Source of the DNA: Candidatus Aenigmatarchaeota archaeon
GTDB lineage: Archaea > Aenigmatarchaeota > Aenigmatarchaeia > PWEA01
NCBI GenBank assembly: GCA_046539305.1
Contig: JBKHHE010000002.1
Span: forward strand, 35,928-99,927
Direction of reading: 5' to 3'
Length of the DNA: 64,000 bases
Under the pieces are notes generated by a model. That model saw nothing but the letters and a program-made list of their open reading frames with translations. It was not told where the DNA came from and ran no database searches. This document shows, in pieces, positions 41,087 to 60,706 of the stretch. Every line of letters starts with the position of its first letter. Within the stretch, counting starts at the first letter, position 1. The translations under genes were made by a program, and so were the position numbers.

Positions 41087-41208
41087 GGGCCTGTAGCTCA
41101 GTCTGGGAGAGCGCTAGGCTCTTAACTTTTAAGAGCGCGTAATGGGACCGGTCGGTCCTTATGACGAAAGAAACCTAGAAGTCGCGGGTTCAAATCCCGT
41201 CGGGCCCA
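41087..41208 (+). tRNA. tRNA-Lys (anticodon CTT) with about a 48-nt intron at 37/38
   Basis: GGGCCTG-TA-GCTC-AGTCTGGGA-GAGC-G-CTAGG-CTCTTA[intron]A-CCTAG-AAGTC-GCGGG-TTCAAAT-CCCGT-CGGGCCC-A. Confidence 0.75.
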
Positions 41209-43965: not shown

Positions 43966-45576
43966 ATGCAGGGGACAAAGTGGGTTTTCATTTCTGGAGG
44001 CGTGCTTTCCGGCCTGGGTAAAGGGCTGGTATCCGCTTCCATCGGAAAGTTCCTTCAGACAAGGGGTCACAAAGTTGTTCCTATAAAATGCGACGGCTAC
44101 CTCAACGTTGACCCCGGAACGATGAACCCTATAGAACATGGTGAGGTTTTCGTGCTGGAAGATGGTGGTGAGGTGGATATGGACTTCGGACACTACGAAA
44201 GGTTCCTTGGTATAAATGGGAAATTTACCTGGAACCTGACCTCGGGTAAGATCTTTCAGTCTGTGATAAAGAAGGAACGTGCAGGAGAATACTTAGGTAA
44301 TACCGTCCAGATGATACCACATGTCACGGACGAGATAAAGGAGAGGTTGGAAAGGGTTGGGGAGAAGGAGAAAGCAGAGGTCGTACTGGTCGAGGTAGGG
44401 GGCACGGTCGGTGACATGGAGAACATGATCTTTCTGGAAGCGATAAGGCAGATGAGGAGTGAACTTCCGGGGGAACAGACCTGTCTCATACATGTGACAC
44501 TCGTACCGTGGCTTGAAACGGTCGGAGAACAGAAAACGAAGCCTACACAGCACTCGGTCAAAGAACTACAGAGGCTAGGACTTGAAGCGGATATAATAGT
44601 TGGAAGGGCGGAGAAGAGGTTAGAAGAAAAAGTCAAAGAGAAGATAGCTCTCTTTTGTGACGTGCCGAAAGACCATGTAATATCAAATCCCGATGTGGAG
44701 GATGTCTACAGAATACCCCTGAGCCTTATGGAGGATGGAGCGGACGAAGTAGTATCAGAGGAGCTTGGTCTGGAAAACAAGGAAAGTGATATGGAAGACT
44801 GGAAACAACTGGTGGAAAGGATGGAAGATCCTGAGGAAGAAATTAATGTGGTTATATGTGGCAAATACACCAAACTGGAAGATTCCTATATCTCCATAAT
44901 GGAAGCCCTCAAACACTGCTCCGCCCACCTGAGCTGTGGAGTGAACTACAGGTTCCTGGAGACGACTAAAATCGAGAAAGGTGAAAAAGACGTGGAGGAA
45001 GTATTAAAAAATACAGAAGGAGTGATAATACCTGGGGGGTTTGGAAAACGGGGCACAGAGGGAAAGATAAAGGTAGCGGAGTTCTGTCGGGAAAATAAAA
45101 TATCCATACTCGGTCTCTGTTATGGGCTTCAGCTTATGGTGGCGGAGTTCGCTAGAAACAAATGTGGGCTGGAAGGGGCCAATTCTACGGAGATCGACGA
45201 AGACACACCACATCCGATTATAGACCTTATCCCCGAACAGAAGAGTGTAGAGGCGAAAGGCGGGACCATGAGACTGGGAGGTCAAGTGACGAAAATAAAG
45301 GAAAACTCGATGGCACACGAAATATACGGACAAGAGGAGATAAAAGAAAGGTTCAGACACAGATACGAGATAAACCCCGAATATCACTCTCGCCTAGAAG
45401 AAAACGGATTGAAGCTTACCGGAGTGGCGAAGAAGGAAAAACATATAGTTCAGACAGTCGAGCTGGAAGACCATCCATTCTACTTTGGTACGCAGTTCCA
45501 TCCCGAATTCACTTCAAAGTTCGAAAGGCCGAACCCTGTTTTCATGGAGTTCGTCAAATCCTGCAGAGAGAGGTAA
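43966..45576 (+). CDS. pyrG: CTP synthase
   Basis: Full-length PyrG: N-terminal synthetase (KWVFISGGVLSGLGKG) and C-terminal glutamine amidotransferase (GLCYGLQ, HPEF). Confidence 0.95.
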   Translation: MQGTKWVFISGGVLSGLGKGLVSASIGKFLQTRGHKVVPIKCDGYLNVDPGTMNPIEHGEVFVLEDGGEVDMDFGHYERFLGINGKFTWNLTSGKIFQSVIKKERAGEYLGNTVQMIPHVTDEIKERLERVGEKEKAEVVLVEVGGTVGDMENMIFLEAIRQMRSELPGEQTCLIHVTLVPWLETVGEQKTKPTQHSVKELQRLGLEADIIVGRAEKRLEEKVKEKIALFCDVPKDHVISNPDVEDVYRIPLSLMEDGADEVVSEELGLENKESDMEDWKQLVERMEDPEEEINVVICGKYTKLEDSYISIMEALKHCSAHLSCGVNYRFLETTKIEKGEKDVEEVLKNTEGVIIPGGFGKRGTEGKIKVAEFCRENKISILGLCYGLQLMVAEFARNKCGLEGANSTEIDEDTPHPIIDLIPEQKSVEAKGGTMRLGGQVTKIKENSMAHEIYGQEEIKERFRHRYEINPEYHSRLEENGLKLTGVAKKEKHIVQTVELEDHPFYFGTQFHPEFTSKFERPNPVFMEFVKSCRER

Positions 45577-45582
45577 TCCTCA

Positions 45583-46715
45583 TGGAAGCGGACTGGATAT
45601 TGATACGTTACGGTGAAATAGGCCTGAAAAGCGATCACGTTAGAAGAAGCTTTGAGGACAGACTTATCCATAACATTCACGAGGGCCTGAAATCCAAGGA
45701 AATCAAGGAAAACATAAAAAGGGGGTATGGAAGAATATTTGTAAACACCAAAGAAGTCGAACGGGCCTCTGAGGTCCTGAAAAGGACCTTTGGAATAGTT
45801 AGCTTCTCCCCCTGCGAAAAAATGGATGCAAGCTTTGAAAAAATAACGGAGAGGCTGGCTGAAGTCGGGGAGGAAAATATAGAAAGTGGGGAAAGCTTCG
45901 CTGTCAGGGTAAGGAGGACGGGCAGCCATGACTTTAGCTCCAAAGACGTAGAAGAAGTTGCTGGAGCTAAAATACTAAAAAGGGTAGAAGCAGAGGTAGA
46001 CCTCGACGAACCCGATAAAAAGATCATGGCGGAGGTCAGACAAGGGCAGTGTTATATCTTCACAGATAAGATAGAAGGGCCTGGGGGGCTACCGCTCGGC
46101 ACACAGGGAAAGGTGGTTTCCCTTCTAAAGGGAGGGTATAAATCGTTTCTGGCAACCTGGCTTATGATGAAGAGGGGGTGTTCAGTCGTGGCTTTACATG
46201 GGAACCTCGGGCCTTATGCCCAAGGAGGGGGAAGTGGAGAAGTTGTGAAGGAGCTCAGAAAATGGAGCCATGGGTCGCCTGTGGAAGCGCTAGAATTTGA
46301 CCATAGCGATAATATTTTCACATTTTCCGAGGAGGGAAAAAGGGGGATGACCTGCGTGCTTTGTAAAAGGTTTCTGTACAGGCTCGCGTCCAAAGTTGCA
46401 GATAAAAGGAACGCCAAGGCCGTAATATCCGGTGAGTCTATTGGAAACAACCTAAAGAGAATGAGTGCAACTGATTCAGTCAGTGACCTCCCCATTATAA
46501 GACCTCTTGTAGGTCTTGGAAGAGAAAAAATAAAGAAAAAATGCAGGGAAATTACGGGAAGACAGTTTACCAAACCGGGCTGCGAGGCCGAGGACAGTGG
46601 TATTTCGGAGTTCACGGAGGAAGAGCTGAAAGAAGTTGAGAGTGAAACTGACGTTGAAAATATGATAGAAGAAAAGTCGGATGAGGTGCTTGAGGTTGAA
46701 GATACCCAATCCTGA
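45583..46715 (+). CDS. thiI: tRNA 4-thiouridine synthase ThiI-like (THUMP + PP-loop domain; PP-loop looks degenerate: KGGYKS)
   Basis: MEADWILIRYGEIGLKS N-terminus; THUMP; C-terminal GESIGNNLKRMSATDS motif; start taken at ATG 45583 after the pyrG stop. Confidence 0.75.
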
Positions 46716-48182: not shown

Positions 48183-48848
48183 ATGTCCTGGAGAGATGTG
48201 ATTCAGGAGAAAAGCGACGAGGTGCCCTTCCTTGTTTTCGTATCCTTTCTCATCTCGTTTTTGGCCGCGCGAATATATGTGTACTTCCTGGGAAATGTAG
48301 GGACCGCTGCAGACATCTTTCCCTTTGAGAAATACATCCTACATCACTTATACTACGGCGTGGGTCTCCTTATAATCGCAGGATGGATATCAATAATATA
48401 CAAAGATAAAAACCTTAACAGAATCTCCGCGGTTATCTACGGTGCTGGCCTGGGAATATTCTTCGACGAAGTGGGCCTTCTTCTGACTGAATTCGCGGAC
48501 TATTGGGCAGGTATAACCTACACTGTAGTAGTTGTTATATCTCTTTTGCTTCTGAATATAGTATTCTTCTCGGATTTCTGGGAGGAAGTAAGGTCTGGGG
48601 TAACGGCATTTGCAGAAAGACACAGGCTTGACCGCGGTCCCTGGAACCTGATGGGTATGGTCGATATACTTGAGGAGGTTGAAGATAAAATGTCTCAAAC
48701 CAGGAAAATAACCACTGTCTTCGTCGGGATAATCCTGATAGTGACGGGGATACTGGTAATAAGGTACCCCTCTCTGATAAAATACTGGGTGGGCGGGGCC
48801 TTCGTCCTGAGTGGCATAGCCCATCTAATAGAAGTTGCCAAGAAATAA
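48183..48848 (+). CDS. Hypothetical integral membrane protein (about 6 TM)
   Basis: ORF with multiple hydrophobic helices. Confidence 0.5.
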   Translation: MSWRDVIQEKSDEVPFLVFVSFLISFLAARIYVYFLGNVGTAADIFPFEKYILHHLYYGVGLLIIAGWISIIYKDKNLNRISAVIYGAGLGIFFDEVGLLLTEFADYWAGITYTVVVVISLLLLNIVFFSDFWEEVRSGVTAFAERHRLDRGPWNLMGMVDILEEVEDKMSQTRKITTVFVGIILIVTGILVIRYPSLIKYWVGGAFVLSGIAHLIEVAKK

Positions 48849-48883: not shown

Positions 48884-49420
48884 ATGTCTGAAGGTTTCAG
48901 CAGCAGGATATATTCAGACTGGATGAAGTCTACCCAAGAGAAGAAGTACACAGAGATACTACTGGACTTTATCCTGCCCCTGAAGAATAAGTTAAATATA
49001 GAAAACTGCCGAGTTCTTGACGTCGGTGTGGGTAAAGGATGGTTTGAGAAAAAGCTGATTGAAAGAGGTATGGACGCCGAGATTGTTGGCCTGGATATTG
49101 AAAAAACCGACTTAGCCACGGAAGGCGTTAGATTAATGCTTGGATCGGGTGACAGAATACCTCTGAAAGAGGAGAGTTTTGATTTCGTGGTTTCCTTCGA
49201 TACTGTTCACCTCCTCAAGAGTCCGGAGGAGATAGAGAGGGTTCTCAGTAAAGGAGGCTACGCACTAATCACCAGCCACTGCAATGAAAGAAACTTTAAA
49301 AAGAAGAAACAAAAAATTAACTCACTGTTCGAGATGGATGTGCTGAAGGAGGGGCTAGTGGGAGACCCTCAGGAGGAAATGAGCTACGCCGTTTTGTTAA
49401 AGAAAGGGTCCGTGGTCTAG
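48884..49420 (+). CDS. Class I SAM-dependent methyltransferase. Its last 15 nt overlap tRNA-Val
   Basis: VLDVGVGKGWF (motif I) and FDFVVSF (motif II). Confidence 0.7.
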   Translation: MSEGFSSRIYSDWMKSTQEKKYTEILLDFILPLKNKLNIENCRVLDVGVGKGWFEKKLIERGMDAEIVGLDIEKTDLATEGVRLMLGSGDRIPLKEESFDFVVSFDTVHLLKSPEEIERVLSKGGYALITSHCNERNFKKKKQKINSLFEMDVLKEGLVGDPQEEMSYAVLLKKGSVV

Positions 49421-49521
49421 CGGCTGGGAATCTTTTGTAAAGGTTGGTTATAAGATTCCACGTAAATGACGTCGCCTTGACATGGCGAAGGTCCCCCGTT
49501 CAAATCGGGGCGGACCCACCA
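49406..49521 (+). tRNA. tRNA-Val (anticodon GAC) with about a 39-nt insertion in the D-loop. CCA is encoded
   Basis: GGGTCCG-TG-GTCT-AGCGGCT[insertion GGGAATCTTTTGTAAAGGTTGGTTATAAGATTCC...]TGAC-G-TCGCC-TTGACAT-GGCGA-AGGTC-CCCCG-TTCAAAT-CGGGG-CGGACCC-A-CCA; oligo-T follows. Confidence 0.7.
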
Positions 49522-49547: not shown

Positions 49548-50456
49548 TCAAACTTCCGGCTGAGTAGTAACAGTAACGTCGTCCTCTACGAAGTATCCGT
49601 AACGAAGTCTGATTTTTACGGGTATCGCCATCTCGGGCTCAACATCGTCTTCATCAATATCTATTCTGCATCCTTTCCTGAAGTCGTGATCCCAGAAACT
49701 TACCTCTCCAAATTCTCCTCCGTAAGCATCGGCACAGTCGCCTACAAGTTCTCCAGGGTCTCCGACATCTATCTTCATTTCTATAGTATTCCTATCCAGG
49801 TCGTCCAGGACGCTACCCTCCAGGTATGCGGTGCCAGGCCCGGTATTCTGGCCAATAATAGTCAGCCTGAAGTCATCACCACCTTCCTCTATAGAAGGTG
49901 CCCTGCCTGGCTCCGGCAGGCTCACGGAAAACGGTCCTGCGGAGGTCACCGGTGCTTCAACTGCAGGTATTTCTTCGTCCTCCCTTGCCCTTGCCCTGTG
50001 CTCGTTTCTGTTCAGGGCAGGAACGTTCACCTCGGCAACGGTTTCGTATTCGTAATATACCCTCACCTTCGGGTTGTCTGTCCGCTCGACTGACTCCACC
50101 TCTGGAGCTTCAAGGCTCCAGTCCTCCGTCCTCGACTCTCCCTGATATTCATCTGTGGCCTTCTCCAAGGTATCGATGTCTTTCGGATTATCTTCATTTT
50201 CCTTCAAACTCAGTTTTCCTCGGTTGAAGATTTGAGCTTTGATGTTTTCCGCATTTACTGTTCCCATATTTTTGACATCCAGTATGATTTCCAAATCCTC
50301 GTTACTATAGACGGCCTCTGGATAGGCCTCAAGTCTATCAATTATTACACCGTCTTGTTGCGGTTCTGACTCCTCCTCGCCGAAGTCTAAACAACCGGAA
50401 ACCGCAACTACAAGCAAAGATGTGATAAGTAAAGCACCGATCTTCTTAGCTCTCAT
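49548..50456 (-). CDS. Secreted CARDB-like lipoprotein, paralog 1 (signal peptide + VSGC lipobox-like cysteine)
   Basis: MRAKKIGALLITSLLVVAVSGC...; GGDDFRLTIIGQNTGPG motif; about 300 aa, acidic. Confidence 0.6.
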   Translation of the reverse strand: MRAKKIGALLITSLLVVAVSGCLDFGEEESEPQQDGVIIDRLEAYPEAVYSNEDLEIILDVKNMGTVNAENIKAQIFNRGKLSLKENEDNPKDIDTLEKATDEYQGESRTEDWSLEAPEVESVERTDNPKVRVYYEYETVAEVNVPALNRNEHRARAREDEEIPAVEAPVTSAGPFSVSLPEPGRAPSIEEGGDDFRLTIIGQNTGPGTAYLEGSVLDDLDRNTIEMKIDVGDPGELVGDCADAYGGEFGEVSFWDHDFRKGCRIDIDEDDVEPEMAIPVKIRLRYGYFVEDDVTVTTQPEV

Positions 50457-50505
50457 CTATCCACCTAATTGTATTTTGGAATATTTACTTTATAAGGCTT
50501 TGCCT

Positions 50506-51408
50506 TTAAGGTGCGACTGTCACGGAAACCATACCATCAATAATGTATCTGTAGTCAGCATATACTTCAAACGACTCCTCTTCAAGTATGTCCACCTTGT
50601 CAGGAGCAACAAAACGACAGGATATCGTGGAAGTTTCATCCTCATGGAAGTAAAGGTCATCGGCCAAAGTGAGGTTGCCATTCTCTTCAACCATCTTTCC
50701 CTGGCATCCACCTTTCTGGTTCAGCGAATCCTCGGGCCAGTCCAAGACCACGCTCCCCTCTTCAAGGACCTGATCCTTTACACTTCCCTCGCCGACGTTC
50801 CTGAACTTTATCTCAAGTATGAAATCATCTCCTCCCAGTACTGGCTGTTCGTCGGGTGTGGAGATGTTTATGTCAAGGGGCGAATCCCTCTTGAAATACC
50901 CCAGCTCCAAAGGCTCCTCAACGCCCTCATCCTTCCTCCTTAGAAACTCGTCCTCGGACATGATGGCGACGCCGTAGCTTGCATACCCTTCTGAATCGTA
51001 CCCAACCCTGTAACGGAAATTAGAAGTCCTGGCCATGGGGACATCTCCCGCCACAAACCCCCATTCCAGGTTTTTGATCTCTCCTGGTTTGAGATCGCCA
51101 ACCTCCTTCTCCTTGTACGCGTCCTCCTCCACCGACTCAAAATGGCCGAGGTCCGTCATCTTCAGCAAAACGTCGCCAACAGTGGCATTTCCTTCGTTCT
51201 CAATTTCGAACTGAAGCCTTGTCTTCCTGCCCACTTCAACTTCATCCCGCAGAGACTCCGCCGAAACCGAAACCTTTTCCGTGACTATATACTCCGGCTC
51301 ACCAACCCCCAGAATCCCTGCCAGGTCAACGTCCGTAGCGAAGCCCATACATCCCGATACACCTACTACAAGAAGTAAGGCCAGGAGAACAGCTGCCGTC
51401 TTATTCAT
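50506..51408 (-). CDS. Secreted CARDB-like lipoprotein, paralog 2
   Basis: MNKTAAVLLALLLVVGVSGC...; GGDDFILEIKFRNVGEG motif. Confidence 0.6.
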   Translation of the reverse strand: MNKTAAVLLALLLVVGVSGCMGFATDVDLAGILGVGEPEYIVTEKVSVSAESLRDEVEVGRKTRLQFEIENEGNATVGDVLLKMTDLGHFESVEEDAYKEKEVGDLKPGEIKNLEWGFVAGDVPMARTSNFRYRVGYDSEGYASYGVAIMSEDEFLRRKDEGVEEPLELGYFKRDSPLDINISTPDEQPVLGGDDFILEIKFRNVGEGSVKDQVLEEGSVVLDWPEDSLNQKGGCQGKMVEENGNLTLADDLYFHEDETSTISCRFVAPDKVDILEEESFEVYADYRYIIDGMVSVTVAP

Positions 51409-51430
51409 GTCTGATCAAGGGATTTGGAAT

Positions 51431-52354
51431 CTACGGCTCTACCTCTACACTATGCTCGTGCAAAAGCTCGTACTCGTAGTCGTTTATTTCGACCTGGACT
51501 GTCTGCTCCTCTACCGGGCCCGGTCCTTCTATTGTCGCGTCTTCAATGACGCAGGATATTCTCGGTGTGGAGCCCTCGCTGAAGTAAAGGGTTTTATCGG
51601 TATTCCTCATAGGCCATATACAGTATTTACCTCCATTATCCTGCTCTTCCGTGTAGAAGTCTTTTATTTCCTCGCCGTTGTGCTTTATCGTTATATCCTC
51701 GGTACCCAGCTCGGTTCCCATCTTTCCTTCGCCTGTGTTCTCCATGTAGATATCGAAACCAACATCAGTTTCCTCGATAAGGGGCTGGTCTCCCCAGAAG
51801 TCTATGTAGGCCTTGATAGGTCCGTCTGCGTAGCTCGCCGTCGGACTGACCCCTATGCTCTCACCTCTCCGGTCCATCTCCCTGACATGGTCCTGGGTCA
51901 CGAGGTATAGGTCGTGTGTGGACCGGGCGTCGAAGGTATAGCTCACTCTAAATCTAAGTGAACAGTCTCTTGGCATGTGTCCCATATCCTCGGAATCGGG
52001 CGTCTCAAAATTCCACCGAACCTCCCTCTCCCCTCCCCTGTATATGTCGTCATCTCTGATATCACTGCCTTCCGTTCGGTTACACATACCCCAATCGTAA
52101 AGTTCCACGTCAACACCTTCGGTGTCCTCATTCTCGTACAGATTCTTTACCAGGAAAGAAAACTCAAAGCCCGAATCCGAAGCTATGGGCGGATTGGGTA
52201 TTACATTTTTATCGGCAACCTCAAGAACGTCGCTGGGAGCTTCCTCTTCCTCCGTGCCGACGCCCATGATCCCGGCAAGGCCTCCTCCTTCCACACATCC
52301 AGAGGTAAATAAGACTAATCCCAGGGCCAGGATCAGAACCACAAACCTTTTCAT
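51431..52354 (-). CDS. Secreted CARDB-like lipoprotein, paralog 3
   Basis: MKRFVVLILALGLVLFTSGC...; similar size and motif layout. Confidence 0.6.
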   Translation of the reverse strand: MKRFVVLILALGLVLFTSGCVEGGGLAGIMGVGTEEEEAPSDVLEVADKNVIPNPPIASDSGFEFSFLVKNLYENEDTEGVDVELYDWGMCNRTEGSDIRDDDIYRGGEREVRWNFETPDSEDMGHMPRDCSLRFRVSYTFDARSTHDLYLVTQDHVREMDRRGESIGVSPTASYADGPIKAYIDFWGDQPLIEETDVGFDIYMENTGEGKMGTELGTEDITIKHNGEEIKDFYTEEQDNGGKYCIWPMRNTDKTLYFSEGSTPRISCVIEDATIEGPGPVEEQTVQVEINDYEYELLHEHSVEVEP

Positions 52355-52417
52355 AAAACCACTATATCTTGTTTTTGCTCCCCAGTAAATATAAATCTTT
52401 CCATTTACTCACCATCC

Positions 52418-55336
52418 TCATCCTCCTCCACCCCCACCATCGTCCTCATCTCCATCCTCTGGAACACATCTATAGACGTCTCCATCGCACTTGTAATCCT
52501 CCTCGAAGCTATCTTTACACCGACTATCGCCGTATTCATCGTGGCCAGGAATACATTCGTACCTCACCTCGACCGTGCTGGTCCTGCTGAACTGATACCT
52601 GTACTCTACCTCCGTCATCAGGTTTTTGGTCTGGTCAGGAGCACCATCTATGTCCAAGTGTTGTTCACCGTCGACGACACACCTCGCATCGATTGTCTCG
52701 TCCGGCTCCAGACCCAGCTTCTCACCTGTCTCATGCTCGTGTGCCTGCAGGCTCTCTATAGTTTCTAGCCTGTTGTTGATGTCCTTCTCTATAACCTTGC
52801 CGCATTCCTTTCCATCATTGCTTTCTACGGGTTCTCCGTCTATCGTTATATTTTTGATCGTTATATCTCTCAGATAGCCCTCGCCCCGGTTGGTCACGGG
52901 GAAGAAAAGGGTCCTGGTCTCACCGTCTTTCACGGGCTGCTGCGTGCCCACGCCGAGGCCGACAGCAAGGGGACCCCATTCGAACCTTGACGTGGGTTCA
53001 TAGAAATCTGTGTCACGGAGCTGGTCGTACCTGTCCTCGCTGTAAATTTCCACCTCCAGATCTGCGTAGGTGTGGACATCGTAGGCCGCGTCGATGCCGT
53101 AAGTCATGTACTCTCCAGGCTTCGCGTTTTCTTCGAAAGCAGTGTGTGTGACCGTGAAAGTGTGGGACTGTCCGGGTCTGAGGTCGACTTTACAGGGTTG
53201 TGAATCCCAATAAGCCCTATATGATTCTTCGTCATCATCGGATTCTGTGTGTCCACTCGCATCTTCACAAGGCGGACCAAACTCCCAACTGCTCCCTATA
53301 GTATTAAGAACGGGGCCGTCGGGCGACCATGTTTTCTCGGAGGTGTCGTAAATAGTCCTGGGAGCCAACTTGACATCCTCTACGGTAGGTGGTTCGTCGA
53401 CGTCTTCACGGGTCAGGGTATTCTTCAGGTCAAAGGTGTAAGTAAATATACCCTCTTCGTCAAAACCTTGGTCAGTTTTTATTGGTTCCTCAATCCTGTT
53501 CCCTGGAAGGCCTACCGGCTCCGGATTGGTTACCTCAACTGCCGTGTAGGACTTCTCAGCCTCGGTATCCGGCCGCCATATCTCCATACACGCCTGCGGT
53601 GACTGGAGACAGGTCCAGCCCTGGCCCATAGTCATCTGAATATCCTGGAAACCTGTAAGCATAGGAGAAGCTGCCGACTCAATTACCTGTATCCTGTTGT
53701 GCACGGTCGGCCACCAATCCCCAAATACAGCCTCCCCCATAACCTGTGGATAGGCCGTGGTTGCGGCCATAATTGCTATAGGTAAAACTATCATCCCCAT
53801 TACAGGCCTGGCCTCTGGAATAGGAACGGCTGTGGAGAGTCCCATCAAGACGATACCGATGTAAAGGACGGCCGCGACCGTGGTTCCCATGAGGGCGTAT
53901 CCACCCAAAACCAGGCCAATTAAGCCAGTAATTCCGGAAAACGCGGTACCGGCTTGTCCAGAACCAAAGGCCTTATACAAAAAAATTATCCCAATAAAAC
54001 CAGCAACCACTGGAAGTATCCAACGGGGGGAAATAATAATTGCCAGAATAACACCTATGATAATAAAAAAGATTAAAGATGTTTTTAAAATTCCCGGCGG
54101 TCCCTTGTTAACCGCTTCTATAAAGCCATCTGCCGCCTCCTTGAAACCTTTTGCTATTTCACCAGGCTTGCCTTCTCCGTAATCTCTAAATTTAGGAATT
54201 ACGATAAAGAAGGCTAATGAGAGAGAGAGTAGGGAAAGACCAAGTTTCCAATTTGTACTCCATATTCCGGAACCCCATACAAATGTCCAGTTGAATAGAG
54301 GTATCAGAACAAAAGCACCGTAAATAAACCTCATAATCATCATTATTCTTTCCAGCTGCCTCTCCTCTTCCCGGTCTGCAGAAGGCTTGCTGGGAAAGGT
54401 GAAGATTCCTATGGCCGCGACGATCATGGGGATCATCCTAAACACTGCCCGATCACCGACGAAAGCCAAAAGGCCGCCCGTAAGGAATATGAATCCGAAT
54501 ACCCTGAAACCGGGCTTCGCGTAGCCCCACGGAAGCGTCTTAGGAAAAATACGGTCGAAGACTAAACCAATTATTCCAAGCATGGTCAAGGCGTAGGCCA
54601 TTCCTCCGAAGCCTATCATCGGGAGGACTATGGCTATAATTAAAACCGCTATGAACATGAAAGCTATGCTTGCGACCCTCGAGCGCAGCGCCTCGCCAAA
54701 CTCGCTCGATGCCCTTTCCTTTTCCTCTTCCTTTTTATTCGCCTTTGCCGTTAATTCCTCCAGCCTTTCTGTGCTTCTAGCAAATTCTCCACATTTATTA
54801 CATTCCCACACTTCTTTATCCGGGTCGTAAGTCCAATCATCGTGGATTTCCTCGCAGTTGTCACAGTACCAGTTCCATTTGGATTCATCTTCCTCCGTTT
54901 CTTCGCCTTTTCCTTCTCCACTGTCTTTATCAGAAGGTGGAAGTCTCTCTTCAGCCTGCTTTTCTTGAATCATTTTATATAGCTCCTGTTCCTCATCTCC
55001 TGTCAAATTCCTGCCGCCTTGAAGTCCCCATTTCCTGACCTTCTGCTGAGCTTCCTGTAATTCTTCCCACGTCTCGGCTTTCTCTATCTTCTCTTTGATT
55101 TTTTCCTTATGCTCTTCTTTGGCTGCCTCCATCTCCGGCTCCCTTCTTTCTGTTTTTGGCTTCGGTTTTCCCTTCTCTTCCTTCCCGTAAACCCTGTCGG
55201 CGAGCTTTTCGATATAGTCGCGGCTCACGTTCTCGAAGACATCAGAAGTCCTGCGGACGGCCTCGTCTCTGGGAACTTCCATCTTCCTGTGGTTAATCAA
55301 AGCCTGCCTGGCTCTTTCACGGGGATCTTTGGGCAA
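52418..55336 (-). CDS. Large polytopic membrane protein (972 aa): charged coiled-coil N-terminus with a C4 zinc ribbon, at least 10 TM helices and a large cysteine-containing C-terminal ectodomain ending in poly-Gly
   Basis: WNWYCDNCEEIHDD...WECNKCGEF; long hydrophobic block at residues ~230-540; C-terminal ...CVPEDGDEDDGGGGGG. Confidence 0.6.
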   Translation of the reverse strand: MPKDPRERARQALINHRKMEVPRDEAVRRTSDVFENVSRDYIEKLADRVYGKEEKGKPKPKTERREPEMEAAKEEHKEKIKEKIEKAETWEELQEAQQKVRKWGLQGGRNLTGDEEQELYKMIQEKQAEERLPPSDKDSGEGKGEETEEDESKWNWYCDNCEEIHDDWTYDPDKEVWECNKCGEFARSTERLEELTAKANKKEEEKERASSEFGEALRSRVASIAFMFIAVLIIAIVLPMIGFGGMAYALTMLGIIGLVFDRIFPKTLPWGYAKPGFRVFGFIFLTGGLLAFVGDRAVFRMIPMIVAAIGIFTFPSKPSADREEERQLERIMMIMRFIYGAFVLIPLFNWTFVWGSGIWSTNWKLGLSLLSLSLAFFIVIPKFRDYGEGKPGEIAKGFKEAADGFIEAVNKGPPGILKTSLIFFIIIGVILAIIISPRWILPVVAGFIGIIFLYKAFGSGQAGTAFSGITGLIGLVLGGYALMGTTVAAVLYIGIVLMGLSTAVPIPEARPVMGMIVLPIAIMAATTAYPQVMGEAVFGDWWPTVHNRIQVIESAASPMLTGFQDIQMTMGQGWTCLQSPQACMEIWRPDTEAEKSYTAVEVTNPEPVGLPGNRIEEPIKTDQGFDEEGIFTYTFDLKNTLTREDVDEPPTVEDVKLAPRTIYDTSEKTWSPDGPVLNTIGSSWEFGPPCEDASGHTESDDDEESYRAYWDSQPCKVDLRPGQSHTFTVTHTAFEENAKPGEYMTYGIDAAYDVHTYADLEVEIYSEDRYDQLRDTDFYEPTSRFEWGPLAVGLGVGTQQPVKDGETRTLFFPVTNRGEGYLRDITIKNITIDGEPVESNDGKECGKVIEKDINNRLETIESLQAHEHETGEKLGLEPDETIDARCVVDGEQHLDIDGAPDQTKNLMTEVEYRYQFSRTSTVEVRYECIPGHDEYGDSRCKDSFEEDYKCDGDVYRCVPEDGDEDDGGGGGG

Positions 55337-55369
55337 CCTTCCACCTGTTTTACTTTAAAATCTTCACTT

Positions 55370-56569
55370 TTAATAGGTTACTTCGAAGTCGGAGAGGTAG
55401 AAGCCTCCCTCTCCCCCTACTTCAAACTGGAGGGTATTTTCTCCCACCGCCAAATCATCCTTCGTTATCTCTATTGAAATAGTTTCTCCCTCTTTTAGGG
55501 GTTTACCGGCCAGGATATCCTTTTCCTCACCTTCTGCAGTTTCTATCTTCAGGGTGAGGAACCTGGGGTTTCCCTCTATACGGTCTATTTGGAAAGTTAT
55601 GTTGCCAGGGAGCTGGTTATAGTTTCCGGAACTTACATCGAGCACTTTCCTGGAGGCCTCGGAATAGCCGGCGTTCCAGAAATAAACCATTTTCGCTGAG
55701 TCGAAGCTGTAAGAGGAATCCACCTCGGTGAAAAGGGTTAGCTCGTTTTGTCCTTCCTCCACCTCAGCTTCCTCAAAGTCTATCCACATCGACCTTTCCG
55801 CCCGATACTCCGGTATGTCCCTGTAAACGTCCTTTCCGTTGACCTGAACCACGAGGGGACTCTCATCCACAAACTCGTCGGGCATAAAAACCAACCTCCC
55901 CATCCTGAAGTTGTCGGCCTGATCTTCCGTGAGGGAGAACTCGAAACTCCTTTCATTCCTCCCAAGTATATCAGCCTTCATCGTGAAGTTTTCCAGTATG
56001 TAAACGGTCGGAGCCCAGAACCTCCAGCCGGAGGATTTGGGGGATATCTCCAGTTCGTTTGTCTTATCGAGCAGAGTCCTGTTCACATCTACGGTATAAG
56101 ACCTCTCGGGGGCGGGGTAACCGGAGTATACCTCCCCACCGTTGAGGAATAGCTCCAGTTCATTCATCCGGTTCGTGTCCTTCACCCAGAAGTCCAGACC
56201 AAAGGAAACTATATTATCAAGTTCGCTCTGAGTAAGGTTGAAGGCAACCGAGCGGGTTTCGCTGGTGCCTATGCCCCTCCTGACATCCACATCTTCCAGT
56301 TTTCCAAGGGTCCTCTCCTCCTCGTGGAACGAAACCTTAAAGGGTTCGTTCGAGAGAGTCACGTGCTTGAAGGCCGTGTCTTCTATCCTTCCCACGTAGA
56401 AAGCCTCCCCGGGCTCCTCCTCACCTTCCTCCTCATCACCGTCGCTGGGACCAGGAATCAGAGGGCCTTCTTCCTCACCGTCTTCTATGAAATCCATCTC
56501 CCCTCCAAATAGGACTAGGAGAACTCCAAAGAGAACTATAGCAACCAGCAGAACCCTTGCAAAATCCAT
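55370..56569 (-). CDS. Secreted acidic protein with an N-terminal signal/anchor (399 aa)
   Basis: MDFARVLLVAIVLFGVLLVLFGG then a poly-E/D linker. Confidence 0.55.
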   Translation of the reverse strand: MDFARVLLVAIVLFGVLLVLFGGEMDFIEDGEEEGPLIPGPSDGDEEEGEEEPGEAFYVGRIEDTAFKHVTLSNEPFKVSFHEEERTLGKLEDVDVRRGIGTSETRSVAFNLTQSELDNIVSFGLDFWVKDTNRMNELELFLNGGEVYSGYPAPERSYTVDVNRTLLDKTNELEISPKSSGWRFWAPTVYILENFTMKADILGRNERSFEFSLTEDQADNFRMGRLVFMPDEFVDESPLVVQVNGKDVYRDIPEYRAERSMWIDFEEAEVEEGQNELTLFTEVDSSYSFDSAKMVYFWNAGYSEASRKVLDVSSGNYNQLPGNITFQIDRIEGNPRFLTLKIETAEGEEKDILAGKPLKEGETISIEITKDDLAVGENTLQFEVGGEGGFYLSDFEVTY

Positions 56570-56621
56570 CTTACCACTTATATTAATTCATGTAACTAAT
56601 AAATATTTGTCGGGTGGTATC

Positions 56622-57653
56622 GTGAAAATCCTGGAAAGAAACGAAAAACAAGGTCTTGTGAAGCTGAAGGTGGAGAATCCCAACGACGTGTGGGAGTTGG
56701 AGCACGTTATTGAAGAGGGCGACCTGGTGGGCGGAAGGACCTTACGCAGAAAGATGATTGAAAGGAAGGATGGCGAAGAGAAGGGGGAGAAGAGACCTGT
56801 TTACCTGACCATCCAGGCGGAAAAAATCAAAATACACGAACACACAGGTAACCTTAGAATCACCGGAAAGATACAGGAAGGGCCCGAGGACGTGGAAATG
56901 GACAGCTACCACACGATAGTCGCGGAGCCCGGGAAAGTTCTTACGGTAGTGAAGAAAGGTGGATGGAAGGACTGGCAGCTCAAGACCCTCAAGAGAGCCT
57001 ACAGAAAGCCACCGAAGGTCTTGGTCTGCGTCCTTGACCGGGATAAAGCTACTCTGGCCAAAGTCACGAACGAAGTAGATATCCTGACCGAGGTTGAGTC
57101 CAGGGAGCCGGGAAAGCAGTACGATTCAGAGAAAAGTGGGGAGTATTTCGGCGAGGTGATCTCGATTCTGGAAAGAAAGTACAAAGATTTCGACAAAGTA
57201 GTTGTGGCGGGTCCTGGTTTCGCCAAAGACGGACTCTACGAAAAAATAAAGGACAGGAACAAAGAAATGGCGGAGAAGGTAACCAAGGCTTCCACGAGCC
57301 AGACGGAGAGGACGGGCGTCCAGGAGGTTATAAACAGGGGTATTATAGAGGACATCGTGAGGGAATCGAGGATTTCGGAGGAGAGCAAGGAGGTGGAGAG
57401 GGTTTTTGAAGAGATTTCCAAGGATACGGGAAAGGTCACGTACGGAGAGGAAGAAGTAAAAAAGGCCGTGGAAATGGGGGCCGTGGAGAGAATCCTGGTC
57501 TCGGAGAAGAAACTGAAGGAGCACAGGGAACTGGTTGCCGAGGCCGAGGACAAAGGGGCGGGGGTTTTAATAGTCTCGGAGAGGCACGAATCAGGCGAGA
57601 AATTAAACAATATGGGGGGCATCGCAGCTTTTCTGAGATATAGGATCGAATGA
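56622..57653 (+). CDS. Pelota/Dom34 mRNA surveillance protein (GTG start)
   Basis: VKILERNEKQGLVKLKVENPNDVWELEHVIEEGDLV... matches the aPelota N-terminus; eRF1-like central and C-terminal domains; ATAAATATT box upstream. Confidence 0.85.
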   Translation: MKILERNEKQGLVKLKVENPNDVWELEHVIEEGDLVGGRTLRRKMIERKDGEEKGEKRPVYLTIQAEKIKIHEHTGNLRITGKIQEGPEDVEMDSYHTIVAEPGKVLTVVKKGGWKDWQLKTLKRAYRKPPKVLVCVLDRDKATLAKVTNEVDILTEVESREPGKQYDSEKSGEYFGEVISILERKYKDFDKVVVAGPGFAKDGLYEKIKDRNKEMAEKVTKASTSQTERTGVQEVINRGIIEDIVRESRISEESKEVERVFEEISKDTGKVTYGEEEVKKAVEMGAVERILVSEKKLKEHRELVAEAEDKGAGVLIVSERHESGEKLNNMGGIAAFLRYRIE

Positions 57654-58232: not shown

Positions 58233-58346
58233 ATGGACCCGGCGGGATTTGAACCCGCGGTCTCCACCATGCCAAGGTGGCGTCTTTTCGTTGGAACCTT
58301 TTGATGAATCTTTTTGGAAAAGATTCCTTCCACTAGACTACGGGCC
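58233..58346 (-). tRNA. tRNA-Ala (anticodon GGC) with about a 38-nt insertion in the D-loop
   Basis: Reverse complement gives GGGCCCG-TA-GTCT-AGTGG[insertion]AGAC-G-CCACC-TTGGCAT-GGTGG-AGACC-GCGGG-TTCAAAT-CCCGC-CGGGTCC-A. Confidence 0.7.
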
Positions 58347-58438: not shown

Positions 58439-59008
58439 ATGCCTCTCCAAAAAAGGATAAAGGCCACGAATTCAGGCGTGAAGAAGAGGGGCGATATGGA
58501 AGAGATAGCCGATTTCTCAGAAAGAGTCAGAGAAATTATAGAGGGAGAGGAGGGGAACTCTTCTGCGAAAAAATTTGAAAGGTGGAGGCCCAGATCTTCT
58601 GATCACGAGAAGGATATAAAGAAGAAGACCGTGTTGGACGCGGTGACGGAAAAGACAAAAGCAGAAAAGAAGGGAGAGGGGATTAAGAGGGACCTCTCCA
58701 GGGCTATGGTAAAAACTAAGGAAGCAGAGGAGAGGGTCAAGTGCAGGAAAGTTCCAAAAAACGAGGCCAAGGAAGCTCTGAAAAACCTCTTCCGCCCCCT
58801 AGTCGCCAAGCTAATGAATCTGCTCAGGACCGTGGAAGGGTCCATCTATTCCAAACTCATGCTGAAATTTAATCCGTATTTCTTCGAGTGTCGCGACTTC
58901 TCCGTGGACCTGAGGAAGATTGAAGACGATGAATACGAAATGGAGGTAAACACACCTCAGGAAGAAAACAGTAGGAAGCTTAAGGGAAAATTCGGCTTAG
59001 AAGAGTGA
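58439..59008 (+). CDS. Hypothetical basic K/E-rich protein
   Basis: ORF only. Confidence 0.35.
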   Translation: MPLQKRIKATNSGVKKRGDMEEIADFSERVREIIEGEEGNSSAKKFERWRPRSSDHEKDIKKKTVLDAVTEKTKAEKKGEGIKRDLSRAMVKTKEAEERVKCRKVPKNEAKEALKNLFRPLVAKLMNLLRTVEGSIYSKLMLKFNPYFFECRDFSVDLRKIEDDEYEMEVNTPQEENSRKLKGKFGLEE

Positions 59009-60590: not shown

Positions 60591-60706
60591 TGGGCCTGCG
60601 CGGATTTGAACCGCGGATCTCCACCTCTTTTCTACGAAGTAGGAAAGTTCGAAATCCCCGATTTCGTATCGTGAAGGTGGCGTCATAGCCGCTAGACCAC
60701 AGGCCC
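60591..60706 (-). tRNA. tRNA-Val (anticodon CAC) with about a 42-nt intron at 37/38
   Basis: Reverse complement gives GGGCCTG-TG-GTCT-AGCGGCTA-TGAC-G-CCACC-TTCACG[intron]A-GGTGG-AGATC-CGCGG-TTCAAAT-CCGCG-CAGGCCC-A. Confidence 0.7.

What the first reader, a model, noticed from the sequence alone, without database searches (positions are those of the whole stretch)
49548..56569. tRNA-Val-adjacent minus-strand locus: three tandem CARDB-like lipoprotein paralogs, a 972-aa zinc-ribbon membrane protein and a secreted acidic protein
- Five co-directional genes start 27 bp after tRNA-Val(GAC) and run to the pelota promoter region.
- Three are about 300-aa paralogs with signal peptide plus [VT]SGC lipobox-like cysteine and VxNxGxG (CARDB/DUF11-like) motifs.
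- Upstream of them lies a very large polytopic membrane protein, and further upstream a signal-peptide acidic protein.
- The architecture (a membrane platform with a cytoplasmic zinc ribbon plus multiple paralogous surface lipoproteins) suggests a dedicated cell-surface assembly, adhesion or appendage system with no obvious characterised counterpart.
- Its position next to a tRNA and the tight tandem paralogy suggest accessory or rapidly evolving status.
Basis: partly seen in the sequence, partly recalled or inferred. Interest (0 to 1): 0.7.

Follow-up and report, generated by a model that had tools for sequence, protein, structure and literature searches.

The report
Conserved Aenigmarchaeota cell-surface gene cluster
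Five neighbouring genes in this uncultured DPANN archaeon (Aenigmarchaeota) encode a large membrane protein, three lipid-anchored copies of its outer domain and a membrane-anchored protein with a sugar-binding-type fold; the set recurs in the same order across the phylum, matches no characterised system, and is most likely an undescribed cell-surface complex.

Summary
Five co-directional minus-strand genes (49548-56569) lie between an intron-containing tRNA-Val(GAC) and pelota. The window is a Candidatus Aenigmatarchaeota MAG.

The three ~300-aa proteins are true paralogs (22-25% identity) with lipoboxes. The 972-aa protein (M) has a cytoplasmic CxxC…CxxC zinc ribbon, 11 predicted TM helices and an invariant FGxWWP motif. 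Its ectodomain is a fourth copy of the lipoprotein module. The 399-aa protein (A) is TM-anchored and modelled as three jelly-roll domains.

The "accessory, rapidly evolving, tRNA-linked" reading is not supported:
- The order pelota<- ->A-M-P-P-P(-P) recurs across deeply diverged relatives (pelota 36-61% identical). It is seen in 26 of 30 metagenomic loci with enough flank.
- The paralogs have position-specific 1:1 orthologs.

Best reading (inferred): a fixed-composition, membrane-anchored surface complex with a structural or adhesive role. The function is untested. It is a new variant among archaeal Ig-like surface-protein clusters, built from new protein families.

The parts
55370..56569 (-). 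A (399 aa). It has an N-terminal TM anchor (aa 2-21, ending in a conserved FGG), a disordered acidic linker (aa 23-54) and three beta-sandwich/jelly-roll domains. It carries the invariant motif SSGWR[FI]WAPTVYI.
   Evidence: ORF. AF2 model with pLDDT 80.6. Foldseek hits to GH35 C-terminal domains, BcsB, PNGase F and Cry protoxin jelly-rolls. 53% identical to the ortholog in L003. Family alignments.
52418..55336 (-). M (972 aa, TTG start). A polytopic membrane platform: cytoplasmic helical N-terminus plus zinc ribbon, 11 TM helices, an extracellular stalk helix, a two-beta-sandwich ectodomain and a Cys-rich acidic tail.
   Evidence: ORF. AF2 model of aa 150-972 with pLDDT 82.9 and pTM 0.73. 100 family representatives at E<=1e-3 in the exhaustive HMMER search. 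No Pfam or NCBIfam family covers it.
54791..54865 (-). Zinc ribbon of M (Cys158-x2-Cys161 ... Cys179-x2-Cys182), on the cytoplasmic side before TM1.
   Evidence: Sequence. Two short beta-hairpins in the model. Weak Pfam hits to DUF5816 and GATA. Zinc-ribbon Pfam domains (DZR, Zn_Ribbon_1 and others) in several family members, and CxxC...CxxC motifs in many.
53753..54676 (-). TM region of M (aa ~221-528). It has 11 helices with the N-terminus inside and the C-terminus outside, and a cytoplasmic loop between TM6 and TM7. That loop is where the gene is split in the sister lineage.
   Evidence: Hydropathy. AF2 secondary structure. Split orthologs of 1020 aa and 589 aa in L003. Conserved positions are Gly, Pro, Phe and Trp plus two Arg, with no conserved acidic or His residues.
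53708..53725 (-). Invariant FGxWWP motif (F538 G539 x W541 W542 P543) at the outer end of TM11, at the start of a ~50-residue extracellular helix.
   Evidence: Invariant in 76 aligned family members. Helix at model residues 381-429.
52565..53539 (-). Ectodomain of M (aa ~600-924). Two beta-sandwich domains form a fourth paralog of the P lipoprotein module.
   Evidence: BLASTP of M aa 718-924 against P2 gives E 2e-8. The P-family HMM hits M at 5e-15, and the M-family HMM hits P1-P3 at 5e-06 to 6e-12. AF2 strands.
51431..52354 (-). A lipoprotein (TSGC lipobox) with the two-beta-sandwich module. It is always the first P gene after M.
   Evidence: Position-specific orthology. A TATA-like TTTATATT lies ~40 nt upstream.
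50506..51408 (-). P-beta (300 aa). A lipoprotein (VSGC) that is always the second P gene.
   Evidence: The exact protein also occurs on Logan contigs from two sequencing runs.
49548..50456 (-). P-gamma (302 aa). A lipoprotein (VSGC) in the third position. This type is duplicated in most other lineages, which have four P genes.
   Evidence: Sub-threshold CARDB hit at E 6.4e-4.
56570..56624 (.). Short AT-rich divergent intergenic region between A and pelota, containing TATA-like elements. The pelota/A divergent arrangement is conserved.
   Evidence: Sequence. Pelota lies divergently within 400 bp of A in 36 of 51 metagenomic loci with enough upstream sequence, and in L008, L010-L016.
49406..49521 (+). 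tRNA-Val(GAC) with a ~37-45-nt non-canonical intron in the D-arm. It is convergent with P-gamma. It marks the boundary of the cluster and is not part of it.
   Evidence: An intron-less ortholog is at the same place in L003, and ~2 kb downstream in L016 and L017.

Best explanation
The locus is a vertically inherited envelope module specific to Aenigmarchaeota, as far as sampled. I call it A-M-P(alpha, beta, gamma).

M is an 11-TM platform with its N-terminus in the cytoplasm (helical domain plus zinc ribbon). Its last helix extends outward as a stalk, starting at the invariant FGxWWP motif, and carries a two-beta-sandwich module. That module exists again as three separately encoded, lipid-anchored paralogs; most relatives have four. 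A is tethered by an N-terminal TM helix and a flexible linker, and displays tandem jelly-roll domains of carbohydrate-binding type.

Inference: the five proteins assemble on the outer face of the membrane into a hetero-oligomer of fixed composition. It would act as a structural and/or adhesive surface complex, either as a membrane-proximal scaffold for the cell coat or as a contact device. A would bind glycans, and the cytoplasmic part of M would couple the complex to an intracellular partner. The complex is not an enzyme or an ATP-driven machine.

Shown here: gene content, paralogy, predicted topology and folds, conservation and synteny. Inferred: physical assembly, glycan binding and the structural or adhesive role.
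For: - Paralogy of P1-P3 and of the M ectodomain.
- Lipobox conserved in essentially all P orthologs. Lipoproteins are reported to be prevalent in DPANN (PMC12462473).
- One-to-one, position-specific orthologs and fixed gene order across lineages whose pelota is 36-61% identical.
- M follows A in 33 of 44 metagenomic loci with at least 4 kb downstream. M plus at least two P genes follow in 26 of 30 loci with at least 8 kb downstream.
- Short intergenic gaps, with Shine-Dalgarno-like GGTG before most of the genes.
- Confident AF2 models give the topology and folds.
- A resembles jelly-roll domains of glycoside hydrolases, BcsB and PNGase F.
- The TM region of M has conserved Gly, Pro, Phe and Trp plus two Arg, but no conserved acidic or His residues.
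- No ATPase or enzyme domain occurs in any of the five proteins or their orthologs.
- N-glycosylation sequons are ~10-fold denser in the ectodomains than in pelota.
- The surface parts diverge faster than neighbouring housekeeping genes.
Against: - There is no direct evidence that the proteins interact. No multimer prediction, expression data or proteomics were available.
- The jelly-roll matches of A are at fold level only (TM-scores ~0.2), and carbohydrate binding is not shown.
- Some lineages carry A without adjacent M or P genes. One distant M-family gene stands without A or P. The parts can therefore exist apart.
- The number of P genes varies between 3 and 4, which argues against one rigid ring stoichiometry.
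- Aenigmarchaeota MAGs are reported to carry separately annotated S-layer genes (PMC8407114), so this is probably not the S-layer itself.
- A polytopic protein with 11 TM helices could still be a transporter of an unknown family.
Confidence: 0.5

Rival explanations
1. The cluster is a host-contact or attachment apparatus of an ectosymbiotic DPANN cell. The surface modules and the lectin-like A protein would recognise the envelope of a host or partner cell, and M would anchor the device and signal contact to the cytoplasm. This overlaps with the best explanation but makes partner recognition the primary role rather than the cell's own envelope architecture.
For: - DPANN archaea are mostly ectosymbionts that depend on surface contact (PMC11329633 abstract; PMC8407114).
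- The surface proteins evolve faster than their neighbours.
- A has carbohydrate-binding-type jelly-rolls.
- One M-family member (P0088, 1612 aa) carries a C-terminal SLT lytic-transglycosylase domain at E 1.6e-10. This suggests an ectodomain that acts on a foreign cell wall.
Against: - Strict conservation of order and one-to-one orthology across very different habitats (soda lakes, hot springs, freshwater sediments) fits a housekeeping envelope role better than host-specific adhesins, which usually vary in copy number and domain content.
- A, the candidate lectin, is the most conserved member (53% identity against 32-38% for the P orthologs).
- The SLT fusion is a single case.
- No host is known for this lineage.
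Confidence: 0.22
2. The cluster is a transport or export conduit. M would be a channel or permease of a new family, for example for uptake of host-derived lipids or glycans, or for export or assembly of a surface polymer. The lipoproteins and A would act as extracytoplasmic capture or guide subunits, by analogy with BcsA-BcsB or with lipoprotein binding proteins.
For: - M has 11 TM helices arranged as two bundles that are separable into two genes.
- A resembles BcsB-type jelly-rolls anchored by one TM helix.
- Two conserved Arg residues lie near the cytoplasmic ends of TM helices.
- A distant M-family gene lies next to an AliA_AliB-family gene and a type IV filament ATPase/platform operon.
Against: - There are no conserved charged or polar residues inside the TM helices.
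- No ATPase, glycosyltransferase or energy-coupling component occurs in any of the conserved loci.
- The P proteins have Ig-like beta-sandwich folds, not the alpha/beta fold of solute-binding proteins.
- The adjacency to type IV filament genes was seen next to an M-family gene only once.
Confidence: 0.13
3. M is a transmembrane sensor or regulator. It would act as a membrane-tethered zinc-ribbon factor whose ectodomain senses the state of the P/A surface proteins or an external ligand, and whose cytoplasmic N-terminus regulates transcription or translation. The conserved divergent pairing with pelota would then reflect co-regulation.
For: - A conserved cytoplasmic helical N-terminus and zinc ribbon are present.
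- One close homolog (P0005) has a precomputed TFIIB-type zinc-ribbon Pfam hit.
- The divergent pelota-A arrangement is conserved in 36 of 51 loci.
Against: - No recognisable DNA-binding or signalling domain is present.
- The cytoplasmic region is highly variable in length and content among relatives: 150-750 aa, with CarboxypepD_reg-like repeats in one lineage.
- Many family members appear to lack the N-terminal half entirely.
- The pelota linkage is explained equally well by backbone synteny, since the tRNA-Val and an MJ0043_C-type gene are also syntenic.
Confidence: 0.08
4. The cluster is a tRNA-linked genomic island, mobile element or recently expanded accessory paralog array.
For: The cluster ends 26 nt from a tRNA gene. 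The products are fast-evolving surface proteins.
Against: - The same cluster sits at the same chromosomal position in distant relatives.
- The tRNA-Val is itself syntenic.
- The paralogs are ancient, with one-to-one orthologs.
- No integrase or mobile-element domain occurs in or beside the locus.
- No relative of the M family was found on viral contigs.
Confidence: 0.02

Closest known systems
CARDB / DUF11-type archaeal Ig-like 'S-layer domain' surface proteins (Pfam PF07705 and relatives DUF7507, NPCBM_assoc)
   Same: The first beta-sandwich of the P module carries an xNxG motif. It gives weak CARDB, DUF7507 or NPCBM_assoc hits in some members. The proteins are extracytoplasmic and membrane-tethered.
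   Different: Scores are below Pfam's cut-off for the window proteins, and only 3 of 23 members match CARDB. The unit here is a specific two-domain module with a conserved linker (GP), a Cys pair and a C-terminal YxY...VxV strand. It is lipobox-anchored and is also fused to an 11-TM protein.
Predicted archaeal secretion/membrane-remodelling complex around arCOG01314 (Makarova et al. 2015, PMC5898192)
   Same: Both are conserved archaeal neighbourhoods of membrane and secreted proteins with Ig-like 'S-layer-like' domains and unknown function.
   Different: That system is defined by a MoxR-type AAA+ ATPase, vWA-domain proteins, the DUF4350 protein arCOG01314 and DUF1616 proteins. None of these was detected in the Pfam scans of the locus or of its orthologs. 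A possible link to the DPANN-wide NEQ255 family, described as 'next to arCOG02487' (PMC6393860), could not be tested.
BcsB, the periplasmic subunit of bacterial cellulose synthase
   Same: A399, like BcsB, consists of tandem jelly-roll (carbohydrate-binding-type) domains tethered by a single TM helix and encoded next to a polytopic membrane protein (Foldseek probability ~1).
   Different: TM-scores are only ~0.2. A is anchored at its N-terminus and lacks flavodoxin-like domains. M has no glycosyltransferase domain. There is no sequence similarity.
Bacteroidia type V pilus operons (FimA/Mfa lipoprotein pilins). Comparison from my own knowledge.
   Same: Both have several paralogous lipoproteins, each made of two beta-sandwich domains, encoded in a fixed order in one operon.
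Enterococcal WxL-locus surface complexes (WxLIP) and PapD/Caf1M-type two-Ig-domain proteins
   Same: These are the nearest solved structures for the two-beta-sandwich module (Foldseek probability 0.4-0.8, TM-score normalised to the target ~0.26-0.31). WxL loci also encode multi-protein cell-surface complexes.
   Different: The matches are weak and generic. The lineage, anchoring and partner proteins all differ.
Oligosaccharyltransferase AglB/STT3
   Same: Both are polytopic membrane proteins with a C-terminal extracytoplasmic beta-rich domain and a Trp-Trp motif just after the last TM helix.
   Different: There is no STT3 Pfam hit. The Foldseek match to A. fulgidus AglB has probability 0.12 and TM-score 0.09. 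M has 11 rather than 13 TM helices and no conserved acidic residues in its TM region.

Membership tests
Archaeal lipoproteins (lipobox proteins) | N-terminal signal peptide ending in the lipobox [L/V/I]-3 [A/S/T/V/I]-2 [G/A/S]-1 C+1 (definition from PMC12462473). | tested here: met
   P1 has AVSGC, P2 GVSGC and P3 FTSGC. The P3 lipobox has Thr at -3 and P1/P2 have Val. The Gly-Cys pair is invariant in 23 aligned orthologs. 26 of 31 orthologs match a lipobox pattern and the rest have close variants.
Archaeal lipoproteins (lipobox proteins) | Actual lipid modification of the Cys and its dependence on AliA/AliB. | not testable with these tools
   This needs mass spectrometry or genetics. An AliA_AliB-family gene was seen next to a distant M-family gene in L009, which is only circumstantial.
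CARDB (PF07705) | Score at or above Pfam's gathering threshold (22.7 bits). | tested here: not met
   P1 scores 20.3 bits, P2 14.8 bits and P3 has no hit. 3 of 23 orthologs match at E<=0.01, the best at 1.3e-5.
Zinc ribbon | Two CxxC knuckles on beta-hairpins. | tested here: met
   Cys158/161 and Cys179/182. Strands at model residues 19-22 and 27-30, with moderate local pLDDT (55-72). Pfam zinc-ribbon families match several M-family members. Metal binding itself was not tested.
Type IV filament (TFF) / archaeal pilus systems | A T2SSE-type ATPase, a T2SSF-type platform protein, and subunits with class III signal peptides. | tested here: not met
   No T2SSE or T2SSF hit was found in the five proteins or in the scanned neighbours. 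The P N-termini are lipobox-type, not class III. TFF genes were adjacent only to one distant M-family gene.
arCOG01314-associated predicted secretion system (PMC5898192) | A MoxR/GvpN AAA+ ATPase, vWA-domain protein, DUF4350 (arCOG01314) and DUF1616 (pfam07760) membrane proteins. | tested here: not met
   None of these Pfam families hits any protein of the locus, its scanned neighbours or the aligned orthologs.
Oligosaccharyltransferase STT3/AglB | STT3 Pfam domain, 13 TM helices, conserved acidic residues in the first external loop, and a WWDYG motif. | tested here: not met
   No STT3 hit. Foldseek match to 3wak has probability 0.12. 11 TM helices. No conserved acidic residues in the TM region.
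S-layer protein | Forms the two-dimensional surface lattice and is among the most abundant proteins of the cell. | not testable with these tools
   This needs proteomics or cryo-ET. Weak NCBIfam hit to PACE-CTERM 'putative S-layer protein' at 14 bits against a cut-off of 110. Sequon density is compatible with surface glycoproteins.
tRNA-linked genomic island / mobile element | An integrase or other mobility genes, variable presence among relatives, and insertion at a tRNA 3' end. | tested here: not met
   No mobility domains. The cluster is present at the same site in relatives. The tRNA is convergent, not a target with a duplicated 3' end, although flanking repeats were not searched. No viral relatives of the M family.
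BcsB (cellulose synthase subunit B) | BcsB Pfam domain, a C-terminal TM anchor, jelly-roll plus flavodoxin-like domain pairs, and a BcsA partner. | tested here: not met
   Only fold-level similarity of the jelly-rolls. No Pfam hit. A is anchored at its N-terminus. There is no glycosyltransferase in the locus.

The most novel reading that the evidence does not exclude
The A-M-P cluster encodes a previously unknown kind of archaeal envelope machine that is a hallmark of the phylum Aenigmarchaeota. In this reading, a membrane platform with a new 11-TM fold nucleates a pseudo-symmetric hetero-oligomer from its own ectodomain and its lipid-anchored paralogs. A lectin-like subunit caps the assembly. 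The whole would form the cell's principal surface scaffold or its symbiotic contact organelle, and the zinc-ribbon domain would link it to the cytoplasm.
Probability: 0.25. Interest if true: 0.8.

Novelty: new variant of a known kind. Interest (0 to 1): 0.55.

Why it matters
Almost nothing is known about the cell envelope of Aenigmarchaeota, which have no cultured representative I am aware of, or about how most DPANN archaea build their surface and contact partner cells. A five-gene module conserved in order across much of the phylum, made of three protein families with no matching Pfam, NCBIfam or PDB entry, is a concrete target for structural prediction of the complex, for metaproteomics and for cryo-ET. 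It also gives three sequence markers for recognising this lineage's envelope genes in metagenomes: FGxWWP in M, SSGWRIWAPTVYI in A, and the P-module pattern of a lipobox followed by NxG, GP, NxGxG and YxY motifs. If the complex proves to be the surface scaffold or a contact device, it would be a new architecture in which a polytopic protein pairs with lipid-anchored copies of its own ectodomain.

Tried and rejected
- **Word-index homology search with M:** found nothing. With the 76-sequence M profile it returned only two proteins, because the candidate list saturated. The exhaustive HMMER search was needed.
- **Pfam and NCBIfam on all five proteins:** only sub-threshold hits. Pfam on 58 M-family and 23 P-family members found no family covering the cores.
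- **Profiles of M, P and A against PDB sequences:** nothing below E 0.2.
- **The afdb50 structure library:** unavailable. The taxonomic spread by fold and a possible link to N. equitans NEQ255 could therefore not be tested.
- **hhalign of the P profile against the A profile:** unrelated, probability 2%.
- **AglB/OST idea, prompted by the WW motif after the last TM helix:** rejected.
- **Type IV pilus link, prompted by pilin-like genes in L007 and TFF genes in L009:** judged incidental. TFF genes lay next to an M-family gene in one locus only, and pilin-like genes appeared upstream in 9 loci.
- **Sulfolobus 'thread' cluster as an analogue:** read and set aside. Its subunits are Sec-secreted, not lipoproteins, and its membrane partners are uncharacterised.
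- **Viral origin:** no relatives of M on viral contigs. The P alignment was too diverse for a pattern scan, and so was the M alignment for the metagenome scan.
- **Structure prediction of A with locus-derived homologs:** It was solved by first registering those proteins through an exact-sequence look-up.

Full report
**What is there**

The window carries five co-directional minus-strand ORFs exactly as described:
- P1: 49548-50456, 302 aa
- P2: 50506-51408, 300 aa
- P3: 51431-52354, 307 aa
- M: 52418-55336, 972 aa, TTG start
- A: 55370-56569, 399 aa

The gaps between them are 22-63 nt. Most genes are preceded by a GGTG-type ribosome-binding motif, and TATA-like elements lie upstream of A, P3 and P1.

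NCBI names two of these proteins as hypothetical proteins ACLFTQ_01740 and ACLFTQ_01750 of a 'Candidatus Aenigmatarchaeota archaeon' MAG. The surrounding genes are housekeeping: split RNA polymerase B, A' and A'', NusA, CTP synthase, ThiI, a HAD hydrolase, a methyltransferase and pelota.

It spans 49406-49521 (+) and is recognised once a ~37-45-nt insertion in the D-arm is removed.

**The proteins**

*The P lipoproteins.* P1-P3 are significant paralogs at 22-25% identity (E 2e-10 to 8e-12). Each begins with a signal peptide ending in a lipobox (VSGC, VSGC, TSGC).

*The membrane protein M.* Residues 718-924 of its C-terminal ectodomain are a fourth paralog of the P module (E 2e-8 against P2; reciprocal HMM hits). 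An AF2 model of M residues 150-972, built with 76 homologs, is confident (pLDDT 82.9, pTM 0.73). Reading from the N-terminus, it shows:
- two zinc-ribbon hairpins (Cys158, 161, 179, 182)
- eleven TM helices, with the N-terminus inside and the C-terminus outside
- a ~50-residue extracellular helix beginning at the invariant FGxWWP motif
- two beta-sandwich domains and a Cys-rich acidic tail

Conserved positions in the membrane part are Gly, Pro, Phe and Trp plus two Arg. There are no conserved acidic or His residues, which argues against catalysis or ion-coupled transport.

*The anchored protein A.* Its model (pLDDT 80.6) shows an N-terminal TM helix, a disordered acidic linker and three jelly-roll domains. 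Their nearest solved folds are the C-terminal domains of GH35 beta-galactosidases, BcsB, PNGase F and Cry-protoxin carbohydrate-binding-like domains. Foldseek probability is ~1 but TM-scores are ~0.2. A and P are unrelated at profile level.

All five proteins are acidic (pI 4.2-4.6). Non-halophilic relatives of M are less so. The acidity looks like a lineage trait rather than a feature of this locus.

**No known relatives**

- Pfam gives only sub-threshold hits: CARDB at 20.3 bits against a 22.7 cut-off for P1, DUF7507 and CARDB for P2, nothing for P3 or A, and weak zinc-finger hits for M. NCBIfam gives nothing meaningful.
- Of 23 P orthologs, 3 match CARDB at E<=0.01. Of 58 M-family members, none has a Pfam domain over the conserved core. 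Several have N-terminal zinc-ribbon domains and one has an SLT domain.
- Profiles of all three families find nothing among PDB sequences.

**Distribution and synteny**

An exhaustive HMMER search with M found 100 cluster representatives at E<=1e-3. They share the core of residues ~460-610 and the motif G-x-A-x-F-G-x-W-W-P. Every named member of the M and A families is from Aenigmarchaeota.

In a soda-lake relative (L003/L011) the arrangement is:

pelota<- ->A, two inserted genes, M split into 1020 + 589 aa, then three P genes, tRNA-Val(GAC), methyltransferase

This is the same position as in the window. Orthology between the two genomes is one-to-one:

| Protein | Identity |
|---|---|
| A | 53% |
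| P-alpha | 38% |
| P-beta | 36% |
| P-gamma | 32% |
| M | 28-32% |
| Neighbouring housekeeping genes | 60-76% |

Distant lineages keep the order pelota<- ->A-M-P-P-P(-P), although their pelota is only 36-49% identical. The first, second and third/fourth P genes form three position-specific orthogroups.

A metagenome scan with the A family returned 80 loci:
- M follows A in 33 of 44 loci with at least 4 kb downstream.
- M plus at least two P genes follow in 26 of 30 loci with at least 8 kb downstream. Of these 26, 20 have four P genes and 6 have three.
- Pelota is divergently adjacent in 36 of 51 loci.

A minority of lineages have A alone, and one distant M gene lacks A and P. No relatives of M occur on viral contigs. 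A recurrent downstream gene of MJ0043_C type, present in 22 loci, belongs to the same conserved backbone and not to the module.

**Interpretation**

The locus is therefore not an accessory, tRNA-targeted or recently expanded array. It is an old, vertically inherited module whose surface-exposed parts evolve quickly.

Several features point the same way:
- fixed order and one copy of each P type
- a polytopic protein bearing the same module as its lipoprotein neighbours
- universal membrane tethering of all five products through linkers or a stalk
- no ATPase or enzyme domain in the locus
- sequon density ~10-fold above a cytoplasmic control

Together these are best explained by a hetero-oligomeric complex on the outer face of the membrane with a structural and/or adhesive role. 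A would act as a glycan-binding subunit. The cytoplasmic zinc-ribbon region of M would be the link to an intracellular partner. This assembly is inferred, not shown.

The rival readings are a dedicated host-contact device, a new transporter or export conduit, and a transmembrane regulator. The host-contact reading is supported by the DPANN lifestyle and by one SLT-bearing family member. The transporter reading is supported by the 11 TM helices and the BcsB-like A protein, and is opposed. The regulator reading rests on the zinc ribbon and the pelota pairing.

**Comparison with known systems**

- The nearest described concept is Makarova and colleagues' predicted archaeal envelope or secretion complexes built from Ig-like 'S-layer-like' proteins (PMC5898192). 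Its defining components are absent here: a MoxR ATPase, a vWA protein, DUF4350 and DUF1616.
- The lipoprotein character fits the recent finding that lipoproteins are prevalent in DPANN (PMC12462473).
- Type IV filament systems, AglB, BcsB, type V pili and the Sulfolobus thread cluster were each considered and fail defining features (see the membership table).

**Verdict**

The cluster is built from three families that no database or fold search used here could place. Its function remains unproven, so I rate it a new variant among archaeal Ig-like surface-protein clusters, of moderate-to-good interest.

Noticed in passing
window 49406-49521 (+); also 41087-41208 (+), 60591-60706 (-), 58234-58298 (-): The tRNA-Val(GAC) carries a ~37-45-nt insertion in the D-arm, a non-canonical intron position. 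Both ARAGORN and Rfam's gathering threshold miss it. The orthologous tRNA in the sister genome (L003 12820-12895) has no intron. Two other Rfam tRNA hits in the window are 116-122 nt long, so they probably contain introns too, and a fourth hit barely reaches threshold.
   Followed up: partly
L003 5107-9942 (same as L011 14050-18885) versus window 52418-55336: In the sister lineage M is split into two genes of 1020 and 589 aa, exactly at the cytoplasmic loop between TM6 and TM7. Its cytoplasmic part has three inserted repeats that look CarboxypepD_reg-like. Two extra genes lie between A and M: a 174-aa protein and, on the opposite strand, a 661-aa protein with C-terminal CxxC motifs. Many M-family representatives appear to be the C-terminal half only.
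   Followed up: partly
protein P0088 (M family, 1612 aa), residues 1462-1497: One M-family member has a C-terminal SLT lytic-transglycosylase domain (E 1.6e-10), which is a peptidoglycan-cleaving enzyme type, on what should be the extracellular side. A Glucosaminidase hit was also seen in one family member in the alignment-wide scan.
   Followed up: partly
L009 10001-20312: A distant M-family gene (1151 aa, with several N-terminal CxxC pairs) has no adjacent A or P genes. It lies next to an AliA_AliB-family (PF01889) membrane protein, two T2SSF platform genes, a T2SSE ATPase and two genes with class III (pilin-like) signal peptides.
   Followed up: partly
L007 2416-2883 (-); 9 metagenomic loci, e.g. 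L070 734-1153 (-): Small proteins with class III, pilin-like N-termini (e.g. MNFKGQVVFEFMIAV..., MKGISTIVVMVLIL...) recur near the cluster, upstream beyond pelota or divergent from the P genes. It is unclear whether this is functional linkage or backbone synteny.
   Followed up: no
L008 12271-13527 (-); L055 17680-20085 (-); 22 metagenomic loci: A gene of ~419 aa starting with a PHP-like motif (DLHLHSHYS), annotated MJ0043_C, is a recurrent convergent neighbour downstream of the last P gene. In L055 it is 801 aa with a weak, sub-threshold intein-splicing hit.
   Followed up: partly
window 58439-59008 (+): A DUF5828 protein (E 5e-20). From my own knowledge this family comes mainly from haloarchaea. 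Together with the strongly acidic proteins of the locus, it suggests that this Aenigmarchaeota lineage is salt-adapted.
   Followed up: no
window 45162-46715 (+) versus 43966-45576 (+); window 56487-57653 (+): The mechanical ORFs for ThiI and pelota extend upstream into their neighbours. The ThiI ORF overlaps CTP synthase by ~400 nt, and the pelota ORF overlaps the start of A. Orthologs are shorter (373-376 aa and 341 aa), so the real starts lie downstream. For pelota the likely start is GTG 56625.
   Followed up: partly
window 48183-48848 (+): A conserved 221-aa membrane protein with no Pfam family (60% identical in L003) lies between tRNA-Gly(GCC) and the methyltransferase gene. It is part of the same syntenic block.
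   Followed up: no
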